A DNA stretch of 24,831 bases from NCBI GenBank assembly GCA_044222065.1, contig JBGAOA010000063.1, forward strand, positions 1 to 24,831. Reading direction: 5' to 3'. The notes under the pieces are model-generated. The model was not told the DNA's origin and did not search any database. It saw only the letters and a program-made list of their open reading frames with translations. The position numbers and the translations under genes were made by a program. The stretch is from Candidatus Eiseniibacteriota bacterium (GTDB taxonomy: Bacteria > Eisenbacteria > RBG-16-71-46). The first letter of the stretch is position 1, and every line of letters begins with the position of its first letter. This document shows positions 21,434 through 24,831 of this stretch, piece after piece.

Positions 21434-22240
21434 CTACTTGCCGCTGAAGTTCGGCTTGCGCTTCTCGACGTAGGCGGCGAGTCCTTCCTTCGCGTCGTCG
21501 CTCTGGAACAGCTGCTGCTGCAGTTCGCGCTCCACGGCGAGCGAGACCTCGAACGGGATCTCGGCGCCGGTCTGCACCGAGCGCTTGATGCGGCCGACGG
21601 CCTTCGCGGCCTTGTTCGGCGGGCAGAACTGCTCGGCGTACTTCTGCACCTTCTCGATGAACTCGTCGTTCGTCGCCGTCTCCCAGATCTGGTTGACGAT
21701 CCCGAGCGACTGCGCGCGCTCGAAGTCGAACGTCTCGCCCGTCACCATCAGCTCGATCGCGGTGCTCTTGTTGATGAGCCGCGCGAGGCGCTGCGTGCCG
21801 CCCGTGCCGGGGAGCACGCCGAGCGCGACCTCGGGCAGGCCGATCTTGCCCGCGCCCTTGCGCGCGATGCGCAGGTCGGCCGCCATCGCGATCTCGAGGC
21901 CGCCGCCCACCGTGTGCCCGTTCATCGCGGAGATCACGAGCTTCGGCGTCTGCTCGAGGCGGTTCAGCGTCTCGTTCGCGTGCAGGCAGAAGTAGTACTT
22001 GAACGTCGGATTGACGGTCTTGAGCATGTTGATGTTCGCGCCCGCGCAGAAGAACTTTTCCCCGGCGCCGCGCAGCACGATCACGTGCACGTTCTCGTCG
22101 AAGCGCGCCTGCAGGATGGCCTCGTCGAGGTCGCGCATCATCTCGTAGGTGTAGGTGTTGGCCGGCGGATCGGTCAGTTCGATCCACGCCACGCCGTTCT
22201 TGACCGTGTAGTTCACGAGCTTGGTCTTGGTGGCTTCCAT
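21434..22240 (-). CDS. Enoyl-CoA hydratase/isomerase (crotonase) family protein
   Basis: ATG at 22240 with a GGAGA SD. Motifs FFCAGANI, NGH.VGGGLEIAMAADLR, GLPEVALGVLPGTGGTQRL and EKRKPNF. Confidence 0.93.
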   Translation of the reverse strand: MEATKTKLVNYTVKNGVAWIELTDPPANTYTYEMMRDLDEAILQARFDENVHVIVLRGAGEKFFCAGANINMLKTVNPTFKYYFCLHANETLNRLEQTPKLVISAMNGHTVGGGLEIAMAADLRIARKGAGKIGLPEVALGVLPGTGGTQRLARLINKSTAIELMVTGETFDFERAQSLGIVNQIWETATNDEFIEKVQKYAEQFCPPNKAAKAVGRIKRSVQTGAEIPFEVSLAVERELQQQLFQSDDAKEGLAAYVEKRKPNFSGK

Positions 22241-22331
22241 CGCGGTTCTCCGAGTCGGGGTGAGCGTTGCGGCCCCAGGCCGGAGTGCGTCCGGCGAGCC
22301 GTGAGCATGCGGGTGGGTTGGAGCGCCGGGC

Positions 22332-22360
22332 AGTATAGGAAGGCGGCGCGACGGGTTCAA
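22332..22360 (-). promoter_or_regulatory. Putative sigma70 promoter of the crotonase gene
   Basis: TTGAAC-N17-TATACT on the minus strand. Confidence 0.72.
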
Positions 22361-22409
22361 CGGCCGTCCCCCGCGGTTGCGGCGCACGCTCGATGGCGGC
22401 GCGGGGGCC

Positions 22410-22449
22410 AAAAAGCATCGCGGCGCCGGTCCTCACACGGCGCCGCGAT
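22410..22449 (-). terminator. Intrinsic terminator closing the sigma54 unit
   Basis: 12-bp perfect stem (22417-22428/22438-22449) with a 9-nt loop, followed on the minus strand by GCTTTTT. Confidence 0.8.
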
Positions 22450-22507
22450 CTCTACTGGAGACCCGGGATCGAAGTACGGCCTCCGCGCGAGTTGCGCGGG
22501 GCCCCGG

Positions 22508-22666
22508 CTAGGCCGGGGGACCTCTCTCCCTGATGCCTCGGAAGCGCGGACCCTGACCGCTTCCGTCCGAATCGTGACGTCCACTTCCCTCTCGAAGGCC
22601 GGGAGCCGTCGCACGAGGGACCCGCACGCGCGTGCGGGGTGAGTGGAACATCCGATCAGGTTTCAT
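22508..22666 (-). CDS. Possible 52-aa small protein ending RGPPA
   Basis: Strong SD (AAGGAGAGG) before the ATG at 22666. However, 20 of 52 codons end in A/T, which is atypical for this window. Confidence 0.35.
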   Translation of the reverse strand: MKPDRMFHSPRTRVRVPRATAPGLREGSGRHDSDGSGQGPRFRGIRERGPPA

Positions 22667-22751
22667 GAGGACCTCTCCTTCGAGCGCGACGAGCGCTCTC
22701 CGCACCTCGGTGTGTCGGACCGCGAGCGGTGAGATGTGAGAGTCCTGAGCG

Positions 22752-22852
22752 GGGTCGAGCCACGGGCCGGCGCTTCCGCCGCGCGGGCAGCCTTCCCAGC
22801 TTCGTCGGGTCGAGCCACGGGCCGGCGCTTCCGCCGCGCAGGCAGCCTTCCC
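22752..22852. repeat. Direct repeat, 2 x 46 bp (period 55)
   Basis: 22752-22797 and 22807-22852 differ at one base (G22785/A22840). Confidence 0.95.
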
Positions 22853-22893
22853 GACCTTCTCGGCGGTGCGTCCACCGCCACGCCCTCAGCGAC

Positions 22894-22909
22894 TGCAAGA
22901 GCGGTGCCC
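22894..22909 (-). promoter_or_regulatory. Sigma54 (RpoN) -24/-12 promoter
   Basis: Minus strand reads GGGCAC-CGCTC-TTGCA versus consensus TGGCAC-N5-TTGCW, with exact GG-N10-GC spacing. Predicted +1 near 22883. Confidence 0.72.
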
Positions 22910-23079
22910 TGCGAGGGTTCGACGCGCCGGAGGCACGGGACCCGCGAAATCCGCGGTTCCGGCGCGCGCGTGCGAAACGCAGTCCGCCGGGTCCGCTGGC
23001 AGATTGCGCGTCCTGCGACACGCAGATCGCGACAACGCGAGCCGTGGGAGAAAGACCTTGAAACCCGGGGCGTGATCAT

Positions 23080-23101
23080 TTAATCGTATTTCTACGATCA
23101 A
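23080..23101. promoter_or_regulatory. Putative ArsR operator
   Basis: AT-rich palindrome TT-A-ATCGTA-N4-TACGAT-C-AA just upstream of arsR, downstream of a TTGAAA (23058-23063). Confidence 0.65.
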
Positions 23102-23147
23102 CGATCAAAGCCGCCGTGTGCGGCCTCGAACCACCCGGGGAGCACCG

Positions 23148-23456
23148 ATGCCTCCAGCCACGACGAAGCGCGCCGCGTTCCACCCGGGCGCGACCGACCG
23201 CGAGACCGCGACGATGGCTCGCGCTCTCGGCCACCCCGTGCGCGTCGCGATCCTCCGCATGCTCATCGCCCGTGGCGAGTGCGTGTGCGGAACGATCGTC
23301 GAGGCGATGCCGCTCGCCCAGTCCACGATTTCGCAGCACCTGAAGGTGCTGAAGGCGGCCGGCCTCGTGCAGGGCGACATCGACGGGCCCCGCGTCTGCT
23401 ACTGCGTTCAACCGAAGGCCGTGCAACGACTGAAGGAACTGATCGGCGCGCTCTAG
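23148..23456 (+). CDS. arsR: ArsR/SmtB family transcriptional repressor
   Basis: ATG at 23148 after GGGGAG. Motifs ALGHPVR..IL, ECVCG and LAQSTISQHLKVLK.AGLV; adjacent to arsM. Confidence 0.9.
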   Translation: MPPATTKRAAFHPGATDRETATMARALGHPVRVAILRMLIARGECVCGTIVEAMPLAQSTISQHLKVLKAAGLVQGDIDGPRVCYCVQPKAVQRLKELIGAL

Positions 23457-23474
23457 CGCCGGGAGGAAGGTGCG

Positions 23475-24344
23475 ATGGAATCGAAGACGATCGTGGTGAC
23501 CGAGACGAGCGGCTGTTGCGGCTCCACTCCCGAGAACCCGTGCTGCGGACCCGCGGCCCAGACGATCGCGCCCGGCGAGGACGCGCGCGTCGTGGTGCGC
23601 GAGAAGTACGGCGCGATCGCCGCGGGACGGCACTCGAGCGTGGGCTGCTGCGGCGCGCCCGATGATGCGAACGCGGTGCTCGAGCAGCTCGGCTACACGG
23701 CCGAGCAGGCGGCCGCGCTGCCCGAGGGCGCGAACCTCGGCCTCGGCTGCGGCAATCCGATCGCGCACGCGGCGCTCCGCCCCGGCGAGGTCGTGCTCGA
23801 CCTCGGCTCGGGCGCGGGCATCGACTGCTTCCTCGCCGCGCGCGAAGTCGGCCCCACCGGCCGCGCGATCGGCGTGGACATGACGCCCTCGATGATCGAG
23901 AAGGCGCGCGCGAACGCGAAGAAGTCGAACGTCGCGAACGTCGAATTCCGGCTCGGCGAAATCGAGCACCTGCCGGTCGCCGACGCCACCGTTGACGTCG
24001 TGATCTCGAACTGCGTCGTGAACCTGTCACCCGAAAAGCCGCAGGTGTTCCGCGAGACGCTGCGCGCGCTCAAGCCCGGCGGCCGGCTCGTCGTGAGCGA
24101 CCTCGTGCTGAAGCGCGAAATCGGCCCCGACGCGCGGGCCGACGCCGAGCTGTACTGCGGCTGCGTCGCCGGCGCTTCGATCCGCGAGGAGTACCTGCAG
24201 CTGATGCGCGACGCCGGCTTCCGCGACGTGCAGGTGCTGGAGGAGCGCGCCTACACCGTCGGCACCGAAGGCCTCGCCGAAGGCAGCCTCCAGCGCAACG
24301 CCTTCGACGCCGTCGTCTCGATCAAGGTGAGAGCCGTGAAGTAG
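23475..24344 (+). CDS. arsM: Arsenite S-adenosylmethionine methyltransferase
   Basis: Motifs VREKYG.IA, LGLGCGNP, VLDLGSGAGIDCF, GVDMT, GEIEHLP, ISNCVVNL and GCVAGA. GGAGG SD; downstream of arsR. Confidence 0.93.
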   Translation: MESKTIVVTETSGCCGSTPENPCCGPAAQTIAPGEDARVVVREKYGAIAAGRHSSVGCCGAPDDANAVLEQLGYTAEQAAALPEGANLGLGCGNPIAHAALRPGEVVLDLGSGAGIDCFLAAREVGPTGRAIGVDMTPSMIEKARANAKKSNVANVEFRLGEIEHLPVADATVDVVISNCVVNLSPEKPQVFRETLRALKPGGRLVVSDLVLKREIGPDARADAELYCGCVAGASIREEYLQLMRDAGFRDVQVLEERAYTVGTEGLAEGSLQRNAFDAVVSIKVRAVK

Positions 24345-24382: not shown

Positions 24383-24831
24383 GCGGAAGGCGACCCGACA
24401 GTCCACACGTTCACGGGGCGAATCAGCGATCCACGCGTTCATGCGGCGCAGCGGAAAGCGAGTCGGAAGTCCACGCGTTCACGAGGCGCAGCGGAAGGCG
24501 AGTCGGAAGTCCCTCTCGGGCGCCACGCGAACTCCCGCGATCAGTTACACGCGGAAGGCGAGTCGGAAGTCCCCCTCGGGCCCGCTCGCCTCCGCATCCT
24601 GCTCCGGCTCGCTACTCGGCTCCTGTCTCCGCCACTCCATGGCTCCGACACTCGCCGACGTGCCCGAGGGGGACTTCCGACTCGCCTTCCGCTGCGCCTC
24701 GTGAATGCGTGGACTTCCGACTCGCCTTCCGCGTGTAACTGATCGCGGGAGTTCGCGTGGCGCCCGAGAGGGACTTCCGACTCGCCTTCCGCTGCGCCTC
24801 GTGAACGCGTGGACTTCCGACTCGCTTTCCG
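24383..24831. repeat. Nested inverted-repeat array of the 22-bp unit GCGGAAGGCGAGTCGGAAGTCC (REP/BIME- or MITE-like), running to the window end
   Basis: Forward units at 24383 (degenerate), 24451, 24491 and 24551; inverted units at 24671, 24711, 24771 and 24811. 24452-24572 is the reverse complement of 24711-24831. Confidence 0.92.

What the first reader, a model, noticed from the sequence alone, without database searches (positions are those of the whole stretch)
22410..23040. Self-contained sigma54 transcription unit with no conventional gene: candidate novel regulatory RNA system
Seen: between the crotonase and arsR the minus strand carries, in order, GCG-Nn-CGC palindromes (23040-22942), a near-consensus -24/-12 promoter (22909-22894), a 5' hairpin, two copies of a 46-nt motif, a strong SD plus a 52-codon ORF, and a 12-bp stem/U5 terminator (22449-22410). 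The crotonase has its own sigma70 promoter beyond the terminator. Known: sigma54 needs an enhancer-binding activator, and sigma54-driven sRNAs exist (CrcZ, GlmY, Pxr). Inference: this is an activator-controlled ~475-nt RNA that I cannot match to any family I know.
Basis: partly seen in the sequence, partly recalled or inferred. Interest (0 to 1): 0.8.

Follow-up and report, generated by a model that had tools for sequence, protein, structure and literature searches.

The report
Orphan sigma-54-driven RNA of Eisenbacteria
An uncultured sludge bacterium has a gene-free stretch with a sigma-54-type promoter and a terminator-like hairpin that likely makes a separate RNA of about 470 bases, predicted to fold; it turns up in RNA libraries from four studies, matches no catalogued RNA family we searched, and likely acts as a decoy for an RNA-binding regulator, possibly CsrA, though it lacks the textbook CsrA-sponge layout.

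Summary
The unit is real. The minus strand carries a near-perfect -24/-12 promoter (22909-22894), a 5' hairpin, two 46-nt copies (45/46 identical), a strong SD with a 52-codon ORF and a 12-bp stem plus U5. rpoN and about 21 full-length activator domains are present. In RNA libraries of four studies, exact-match contigs cover about 22452-22836 and mostly not the flanks; strand and ends are not shown and no DNA run was laid. No Rfam match. No homologue in 205 other phylum genomes, so covariation could not be tested. The ORF has no homologue and a non-coding codon score, but its SD beats chance. Best guess (0.3): a decoy for CsrA. The family keeps csrA (83/89) without fliW (0/89); Hfq, ProQ and RapZ were not found in this genome; GGA[ACU]G is enriched (10; 0 of 1052 intergenic windows). 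Against: only 6 of 16 GGAs are A(N)GGA and 4-6 are predicted exposed (CsrB control 19 and 17 of 22), so it is not a CsrB member. The 'GCG-Nn-CGC' enhancer is chance-level. The scan had not noted this sequence on other DNA but has reported other sigma-54 RNAs in Eisenbacteria.

The parts
22943..23034 (-). Putative upstream activator region: imperfect palindromes at 23034-23018, 23020-23004, 22981-22971 and 22955-22943
   Evidence: Sequence; positions. The GCG-N-CGC pattern is chance-level; the activator is unidentified; inferred.
22894..22909 (-). sigma54-type -24/-12 promoter GGGCAC-N5-TTGCA; +1 inferred near 22883
   Evidence: One of 5 perfect cores in the genome; rpoN present. Start site not mapped.
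22410..22883 (-). Predicted RNA of about 474 nt
   Evidence: Exact-match RNA-library contigs 22452/22461/22467 to 22821/22836 in 4 of 4 runs laid; fold z -3.2; ends and strand inferred from promoter and terminator.
22861..22880 (-). 5' hairpin, 8 bp, GACG loop
   Evidence: z -2.8
22807..22852 (-). Repeat copy 1: predicted long stem-loop with two GGAAG (one at an internal loop, one at the apical loop)
   Evidence: the fold of the unit alone is not better than shuffles (z -0.9)
22752..22797 (-). Repeat copy 2 (45/46 identical to copy 1)
22668..22746 (-). Domain 1: predicted multi-branch fold whose closing helix hides the SD
   Evidence: unpaired probability of most SD bases <=0.33; domain z only -0.75
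22672..22681 (-). Strong Shine-Dalgarno GAAGGAGAGG, overlapping an A(N)GGA site
22508..22666 (-). 52-codon ORF (P0001), Arg/Gly/Pro-rich; translation unknown
   Evidence: Codon score -0.53 per codon and GC3 0.61, below all 11 real-looking small genes compared (-0.19 to +0.60); no homologue
22567..22660 (-). Domain 2: predicted three-way junction
   Evidence: z -3.6
22539..22565 (-). Hairpin whose 3' arm can alternatively pair with either repeat copy (three CGGAAGCG, one complement)
   Evidence: (I6, I7)
22465..22530 (-). Domain 3: predicted three-way junction, opened by a second SD-like purine run without an AUG
   Evidence: (z -5.4 with the terminator)
22410..22449 (-). Intrinsic-terminator-like 12-bp stem plus U5
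   Evidence: RNA contigs of 2 studies stop at 22452, at its foot; not called by the consensus scan
22332..22360 (-). sigma70-type promoter of the crotonase gene (neighbour, not part of the unit)
   Evidence: similar boxes are visible upstream of crotonase orthologues that lack the RNA
21434..22240 (-). Enoyl-CoA hydratase (crotonase) gene, downstream neighbour
   Evidence: Pfam ECH_1 E 1.7e-53
23148..23456 (+). arsR, divergent neighbour, followed by arsM (23475-24344)

Best explanation
The gap likely encodes a separate RNA of about 474 bases, likely switched on by a sigma-54 activator encoded elsewhere, that is predicted to fold into repeated stem-loops and junction domains and likely works as a low-affinity decoy for the translational repressor CsrA. 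Shown: promoter match, repeat, SD, ORF, terminator stem, presence in RNA libraries, csrA without fliW in the family, GGA[ACU]G enrichment. Inferred: that sigma54 drives it, its ends and strand, its fold, that a protein binds it, and that this protein is CsrA. In this model a signal fires one of about 21 activators, the RNA accumulates, its GGA sites (four doubled by the tandem duplication, one on the SD of the embedded ORF) soak up CsrA, and CsrA targets are released. The short ORF would be a CsrA-gated passenger rather than a conserved protein. I put a real, separate transcript at about 0.9 and the CsrA role at about 0.3.
For: Separate unit: RNA contigs with 0 mismatches cover the body in 4 of 4 runs laid, from 4 studies; depth is 0 in bin 22311-22411 in all four, and 0 over 22917-23522 in X18 and X20. 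None of 29 crotonase-orthologue upstream regions holds the element; in 6 of the 12 relatives with the arsR operator upstream it lies 129-257 nt from the crotonase start, vs 842 here. Partner: csrA in 83 of 89 family genomes, core nearly invariant in the 30 copies read; fliW in 0 of 89; flagellin-family matches in only 30 of 89; Hfq, ProQ and RapZ not found in this 94%-complete genome. CsrA genomes mostly use either FliW or BarA-UvrY-driven sRNAs (PMC4682653 passages). Motif: the CsrB repeat is CAGGA(U/A/C)G (PMC7652899 passage); GGA[ACU]G occurs 10 times vs 2.2+-1.6 genome-wide, p 0.001 against shuffles even with one repeat copy removed, 0 of 1052 intergenic windows reach 10, and the antisense strand has 1. 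Precedents: CrcZ is a sigma54-driven protein sponge (PMC8871633 passages); flaA mRNA both codes and titrates CsrA (PMC4894983 passages).
Against: High-affinity sites are A(N)GGAX in loops, and buried GGAs bind with mM affinity (PMC4005645 passages). Here 6 of 16 GGAs are A(N)GGA and 4-6 are predicted exposed, no more than the RNA's average base (0.28 vs 0.29); E. coli CsrB under the same computation gives 19 and 17 of 22 (0.80 vs 0.44). The repeat's own GGAs lack the upstream A. The plain GGA count is not above shuffles (16 vs 12.4, p 0.11) and 29 of 1052 intergenic windows reach 16. The most enriched 5-mers are GAGAG, GGTCC and AGAGG, with GGAAG seventh. csrA is family-wide but this RNA is not, and none of the relatives' sigma54-pattern loci read (48 loci; 30 of 50 matches) showed a non-coding GGA-rich counterpart. 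The flagellin leader shows only one GGA near the start, in its SD. An earlier unchecked note proposes protein partners for this CsrA (e1-4390481). Eisenbacteria CsrAs are mostly predicted not to repress B. subtilis hag (PMC13443453 passages), which leaves their specificity open. In run X16 a contig also covers 22899-23135, across the promoter, so DNA or read-through is present there; no DNA run was laid as control and the runs were picked for holding this stretch.
Confidence: 0.3

Rival explanations
1. It is a small mRNA or ribosome-docking RNA: a 217-nt structured leader hides a very strong SD, an unknown cue opens it, and what matters is translation itself or a young 52-residue basic peptide.
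For: SD among the strongest 4% of called starts; 0.3% of shuffles give such an SD with an ORF of 30 or more codons closing inside. The SD is predicted paired and the AUG open, a typical gated layout. sigma54-type promoters precede other small ORFs in this genome. The top enriched words are SD-like.
Against: Codon score in the lowest 0.3% of true-gene slices and below 11 of 11 small genes compared; no homologue among 1.84 billion representatives, in the 90% clusters of 28-91 residues, Pfam, NCBIfam or the ESM Atlas; the ORF lies on the best-folding domains.
Confidence: 0.22
2. It is a structured regulatory or scaffold RNA like the lineage's other sigma54 RNAs, binding a protein other than CsrA or pairing with an mRNA or another RNA.
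For: The genome holds at least four other sigma54-type promoters followed by gene-free stretches (C3, C7, C64, C106) with similar folding energy per base where computed (C3, C7, C64). Domains 2 and 3 fold better than shuffles (z -3.6, -5.4). Three CGGAAGCG words compete for one complement. A 24-nt stretch is 83% complementary to the C64 RNA (E 0.51, not significant).
Against: No sequence likeness to those RNAs. Longest perfect complementarity to 3271 start regions is 15 nt, the same as in shuffled controls (14-16). Few long accessible seeds. Hfq and ProQ not found.
Confidence: 0.25
3. It is a young or decaying transcription unit with no selected function: a strong promoter and terminator around repeat-expanded GC-rich DNA in a variable insertion site.
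For: No homologue in 205 other phylum genomes by blastn or in 88-101 genomes by three covariance models. The region upstream of the crotonase varies widely among relatives. The fold is unremarkable against genomic windows.
Against: Promoter, hairpin, SD and terminator are all intact and in order; 15 runs hold half or more of the sampled words (one may be the source sample); it is seen in RNA of four studies with no differences. No congeneric genome is held, and fast-evolving RNAs escape these searches.
Confidence: 0.17
4. It is not a separate RNA but a long 5' leader or attenuator of the crotonase gene, or the RNA-library signal is DNA carry-over.
For: Same strand as the crotonase; the U-tract is only 5 long; X16 shows cover across the promoter.
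Against: The crotonase has its own sigma70-type promoter beyond the hairpin, and orthologues lack the element. Depth is 0 between hairpin and crotonase promoter in all four runs, and arsR is uncovered in X18 and X20.
Confidence: 0.06

Closest known systems
CsrB/CsrC, RsmX/Y/Z (CsrA/RsmA sponges of Gammaproteobacteria; PMC7652899, PMC4005645, PMC4682653, passages read)
   Same: Stand-alone RNA with terminator; repeated GGA(U/A/C)G words; host has CsrA and no FliW.
   Different: sigma54-type promoter instead of BarA-UvrY control; 6 of 16 GGAs in A(N)GGA and most predicted paired (CsrB 19 of 22, 17 exposed); long helices and junctions instead of many short hairpins; embedded SD and ORF; no Rfam match.
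CrcZ/CrcY of Pseudomonas (PMC8871633, passages read)
   Same: sigma54-dependent, activator-controlled RNA acting as a protein decoy; a length of a few hundred bases is recalled, not from a call.
   Different: crcZ lies directly behind cbrB; no activator is adjacent here. Hfq not found. No A-rich AANAANAA motifs (motif recalled; sequence).
GlmY (PMC7073468, PMC4152352: search listing and start of abstract only) and Pxr (PMC5684412: listing and start of abstract only)
   Different: RapZ not found; no Rfam match; both are much shorter (recalled).
Campylobacter jejuni flaA mRNA as dual-function CsrA sponge (PMC4894983, passages read)
   Same: An RNA with GGA sites in a leader and on an SD that could both be translated and titrate CsrA.
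   Different: flaA has two GGA hexaloops, codes a conserved protein and works with FliW; none of this holds here.
Uncatalogued sigma54 RNAs of Eisenbacteria noted earlier in this scan (e1-3678191, e1-7892784, e1-9518007, e1-6588673, e1-7797751; AI notes, unchecked)
   Same: Same lineage, promoter type, size range and folded multi-domain look.
   Different: Those are reported as conserved and some sit behind a TPR activator. This one is single-genome, sits between arsR and a crotonase, carries a tandem repeat and an ORF, and shows no sequence likeness to the copies I located in this genome. The 435-nt family could not be compared: I do not have its sequence.

Membership tests
CsrB/RsmY/RsmZ-type CsrA sponges | Host encodes CsrA | tested here: met
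   PF02599 91.7 bits; 83 of 89 family genomes
CsrB/RsmY/RsmZ-type CsrA sponges | Host lacks FliW | tested here: met
   0 of 89 genomes, 0 of 44 of high quality
CsrB/RsmY/RsmZ-type CsrA sponges | Many GGA repeats beyond base composition | tested here: inconclusive
   GGA 16 vs 12.4 in shuffles, p 0.11; GGA[ACU]G 10 vs 2.9, none of 2000 shuffles; 0 of 1052 intergenic windows
CsrB/RsmY/RsmZ-type CsrA sponges | GGA mostly in A(N)GGA context | tested here: not met
   6 of 16 vs 19 of 22 in CsrB; 6 vs 2.0 background, p about 0.03
CsrB/RsmY/RsmZ-type CsrA sponges | GGA in loops or single strands | tested here: not met
   Predicted: 4-6 of 16 exposed vs 17 of 22 in CsrB; prediction only
CsrB/RsmY/RsmZ-type CsrA sponges | Transcription by BarA-UvrY/GacS-GacA | not tested
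   No search for these genes was run; the promoter seen is of sigma54 type and the sigma70 scan found none for this unit
CsrB/RsmY/RsmZ-type CsrA sponges | Match to an Rfam model | tested here: not met
CsrB/RsmY/RsmZ-type CsrA sponges | Binds and titrates CsrA | not testable with these tools
   needs EMSA or co-IP
CrcZ/CrcY | sigma54 promoter and rpoN | tested here: met
   (sequence match; activity not shown)
CrcZ/CrcY | Lies behind its activator gene (cbrB) | tested here: not met
   Neighbours are arsR and a crotonase; no activator match on contig C110
CrcZ/CrcY | Hfq/Crc partner and A-rich motifs | tested here: not met
   Hfq not found in a 94%-complete genome; no AANAANAA in the sequence (motif recalled); Crc not searched
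GlmY | RapZ partner and Rfam match | tested here: not met
Eisenbacteria peptide-TPR-activator cassette RNA (earlier scan notes) | Lies downstream of a TPR sigma54 activator and resembles the cassette RNA | tested here: not met
   Cassettes are on C7, C9 and C64; best blastn E 0.51
Small-protein mRNA | SD and start codon | tested here: met
Small-protein mRNA | Coding signature or conserved product | tested here: not met
tmRNA, other housekeeping RNAs and catalogued riboswitches | Rfam or ARAGORN match | tested here: not met
   the genome's tmRNA is on C98 and ARAGORN calls nothing on C110

The most novel reading that the evidence does not exclude
This is a CsrA-titrating RNA outside the Gammaproteobacteria, wired to sigma54 and an enhancer-binding activator instead of BarA-UvrY, in a lineage that keeps a nearly invariant CsrA without FliW and mostly without flagella; it presents GGA sites in a non-canonical, switchable fold and gates its own short ORF, a third way of controlling CsrA.
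Probability: 0.25. Interest if true: 0.75.

Novelty: new member of a known kind. Interest (0 to 1): 0.45.

Why it matters
How CsrA is controlled in bacteria that have neither FliW nor known Csr sRNAs is open (PMC4682653 says little is known outside the species shown to make such sRNAs). This family is a clean case: csrA in 83 of 89 genomes, fliW in 0 of 89, flagellin-family genes in 30 of 89. The RNA gives a cheap test: one 79-residue protein, one transcript, one gel shift. If binding fails, the RNA is still an uncatalogued, probably expressed sigma54 RNA, one of several per genome in this phylum, which points to a sizeable unexplored layer of RNA regulation. Its weight is limited by being found in one species so far. 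My three searches on this point (Eisenbacteria plus non-coding RNA; CsrA sponge terms) listed no paper describing it; most subscription journals are not in the library.

Tried and rejected
Homologue searches, all negative: blastn in 60 relatives (15 of the listed hits inspected, chance matches) and 205 phylum genomes at E<=1e-4 (one 40-nt hit to the terminator hairpin); covariance models built from this single sequence or its duplicate, R1 and R2 in 88 family genomes, R1 in 5 genomes with laxer filters, R3 in 101 order genomes (14 best loci read, none a promoter-plus-RNA homologue); promoter-plus-GGA pattern in 89 genomes (51 matches, 48 loci read); repeat pattern in metagenomes (42 chance loci); promoter-plus-hairpin pattern in GTDB contigs (93 stretches, 80 scanned with R3, best 23.8 bits on loci chosen for the pattern) and viral contigs (0); plasmids and phages. 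Exact patterns and one-sequence models are insensitive, so absence is not shown. Peptide; longer or shorter forms were not searched in the 90% clusters. Synteny through crotonase orthologues gave no copy. A tRNA/tmRNA-like 3' end near 22473 is two bases short, lacks a T-stem and matches no tRNA of the genome. Cobalamin-riboswitch, SRP and kink-turn readings of the repeat were considered by eye from recalled motifs and dropped; Rfam gave nothing. mRNA targets: not above control. Activator assignment: the template came from this sequence, so the scan is circular and found no co-regulated promoter; no IHF consensus. The search with L153 used coordinates that covered only the 3' half of that RNA plus coding DNA, so it says little. 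The higher depth of the 85-nt repeat contig could mean more repeat copies in other strains or 5' bias; contig depth cannot decide this. The short length of cover upstream of 22836 fits a 5' end near 22883 if the assembler clips short tips (my recall of the pipeline, not a result). No structure or complex prediction was run. Supplements: only that of PMC13443453 was searched (two taxon-list mentions).

Full report
Setting. The window is contig C110 of a 4.2-Mb, 72% GC, 94%-complete genome in 131 contigs, the only one of its genus among those held. The name Eisenbacteria comes from earlier scan notes on the same genome, not from a taxonomy call of mine; the phylum search covered 206 genomes, the number those notes use. 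Public runs holding the stretch are labelled sludge, bioreactor or wastewater where labelled. The gap lies between a crotonase (22240-21434, minus) and divergent arsR-arsM (23148-24344, plus).

Observation. Everything listed is present. The -24/-12 core is one of 5 in the genome, rpoN is present and about 21 of 28 activator-domain matches are full length. The same kind of pattern is not above its reversed control genome-wide in five relatives (50 vs 54), so position and expression carry the weight. The repeat has a 55-nt period and 45 of 46 identical core bases. The terminator stem is 12 perfect pairs with U5, missed by the consensus scan. The upstream GCG-Nn-CGC palindromes are chance-level (5 vs 4.1+-3.2). 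Rfam gave nothing at gathering score and seven weak matches far below gathering at E<=10.

Expression. Of 24 runs listed, 20 hold the stretch and 6 of these are RNA. I laid 4 of the 6, one per study. Contigs with no mismatches cover 22461-22836 (X18), 22452-22836 (X19, X20) and 22467-22821 with a 12-nt gap (X16). Depth is 0 in bin 22311-22411 in all four and 0 over 22917-23522 in X18 and X20; X19 has low depth upstream; X16 has a contig over 22899-23135 that crosses the promoter and suggests DNA or read-through in that library. Two studies stop at the same base, at the foot of the terminator. These are assembled contigs: strand, ends and level are not shown, the piece table was cut (109 not shown), the runs were chosen for holding this stretch, and no DNA run was laid. 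I read this as good but not final evidence of a separate transcript.

Conservation. None found. The element is absent upstream of 29 crotonase orthologues; in 6 of 12 relatives with the arsR operator upstream the distance to the crotonase is 129-257 nt against 842 here, so the unit looks inserted at a variable site. blastn over 205 other genomes gave one terminator-only hit. Three one-sequence covariance models gave no credible hit in 88, 88 and 101 genomes. Pattern scans of relatives, metagenomes, GTDB and viruses gave chance hits or nothing, and plasmids and phages nothing. Covariation could therefore not be tested and the fold rests on energy prediction: z -3.2 against shuffles, best in domains 2 and 3, but within about 1 SD of 40 genomic windows.

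The ORF. Its SD is among the strongest 4% of 1648 called starts and arises in 1.5% of 600 shuffles, yet it is predicted paired with 22746-22738. The frame scores in the lowest 0.3% of true-gene slices and below all 11 comparison small genes (a twelfth, mis-located 7-codon frame was dropped). No homologue exists in any protein resource tried. Ribosome binding is plausible; a conserved protein is not.

Partner. Hfq, ProQ, RapZ and FliW were not found in this genome; CsrA was. Across the family csrA is in 83 of 89 genomes, fliW in 0 of 89 and flagellin-family genes in 30 of 89; the CsrA core is nearly invariant in 30 copies. Published work finds FliW and sRNA-type control anti-correlated (PMC4682653, passages) and gives the CsrB repeat as CAGGA(U/A/C)G (PMC7652899, passages). 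The RNA has 16 GGA (genome 7.0+-3.0; shuffles 12.4, p 0.11) and 10 GGA[ACU]G (genome 2.2+-1.6; p 0.001 with one repeat removed), a count none of 1052 intergenic windows reaches. Against this, strong binding needs A(N)GGA in a loop (PMC4005645, passages), and the E. coli CsrB control has 19 such contexts and 17 exposed sites of 22, where this RNA has 6 and 4-6 of 16. The most enriched words are SD-like, GAGAG and GGTCC. It fails two defining features of the CsrB family and I do not file it there; it may still work like one at low affinity, as a coding RNA can (flaA, PMC4894983, passages), and this lineage's CsrA may read RNA differently (PMC13443453, abstract, introduction part 1 and passages).

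Other readings. No mRNA start region pairs better than shuffled controls. The RNA is not one of the peptide-TPR-activator cassette RNAs noted earlier, whose loci I placed on C7, C9 and C64, nor the C106 RNA shared with L137. It is one of about five orphan sigma54-type RNA candidates in this genome and, among the non-coding ones, the richest in GGA[ACU]G. Searches of earlier findings by this sequence returned nothing relevant.

Verdict. A probably real, uncatalogued, sigma54-type RNA gene (about 0.9), known from one species. Mechanism: CsrA decoy 0.3, other protein- or RNA-binding regulator 0.25, gated small ORF 0.22, unselected young unit 0.17, leader or artefact 0.06. It is a new member of a known kind (activator-controlled sigma54 RNAs such as CrcZ; PMC8871633, passages). 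Interest 0.45, rising to about 0.75 if CsrA binding is shown.

Noticed in passing
G000:C121:9068-9390; L102-L130: csrA is preceded by a conserved sigma28-type promoter (T(C/T)AAG-N15-GCCGATA visible in most of the 30 leaders printed) and lies in a cluster with a FlgM-like ORF, a sensor kinase, a sigma54 response regulator and a FliA-like sigma factor (names by eye from translations); family: csrA 83/89, fliW 0/89, flagellin-family 30/89.
   Followed up: partly
G000:C3:86533 (+), about 245 nt: Second orphan sigma54-type unit, purine-rich (7 GGA, 5 GGA[ACU]G), ending in a strong hairpin, convergent with the 3' end of a sigma54 activator gene; shares the word AGAGAGGTC with the RNA studied. Conservation not searched.
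   Followed up: partly
G000:C64:50545 (+) and C7:44720 (+): sigma54-type RNAs behind peptide-TPR-activator cassettes; the C64 RNA's first bases have a 10-nt perfect complement in the C64 cassette leader (seen by eye). The C64 activator appears split by a frameshift or stop. The C9 cassette has no room for such an RNA downstream.
   Followed up: partly
G000:C106:99410 (+); L137 (G177): A sigma54-type RNA of about 270-290 nt shared between this genome and G177; no Rfam match for L137.
   Followed up: partly
L153 (G185:C93) and L154 (G186:C269): A pair of about 335-nt, 85%-identical, strongly folding sigma54-type RNAs with U-rich terminators; no Rfam match; unrelated to the RNA studied.
   Followed up: partly
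G000:C126:75438 (+) and C37:5618 (+): sigma54-type promoters directly behind activator genes, driving a long structured leader with a small membrane-like ORF (C126) and a 21-residue Lys/Ala-rich peptide (C37).
   Followed up: no
window 23077-23105: Palindromic AT-rich site before arsR, conserved in 12 of 29 crotonase-upstream regions of relatives; likely the ArsR operator.
   Followed up: partly
window 24440-24831: Several direct and inverted copies of a GGAAGGCGAGTCGGAAGTCC-like unit at the contig end, downstream of arsM; looks like a REP/MITE-type repeat that broke the assembly.
   Followed up: no
window 22752-22836: The 85-nt contig spanning one repeat period is 1.3-3.1 times deeper than the RNA body in three RNA runs; other strains may carry more copies, or 5' fragments accumulate.
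   Followed up: no
G000:C84:2125-2655 (-): Gene-free stretch with 11 GGA[ACU]G in 531 nt, partly the 5' region of a gene; no promoter examined.
   Followed up: no
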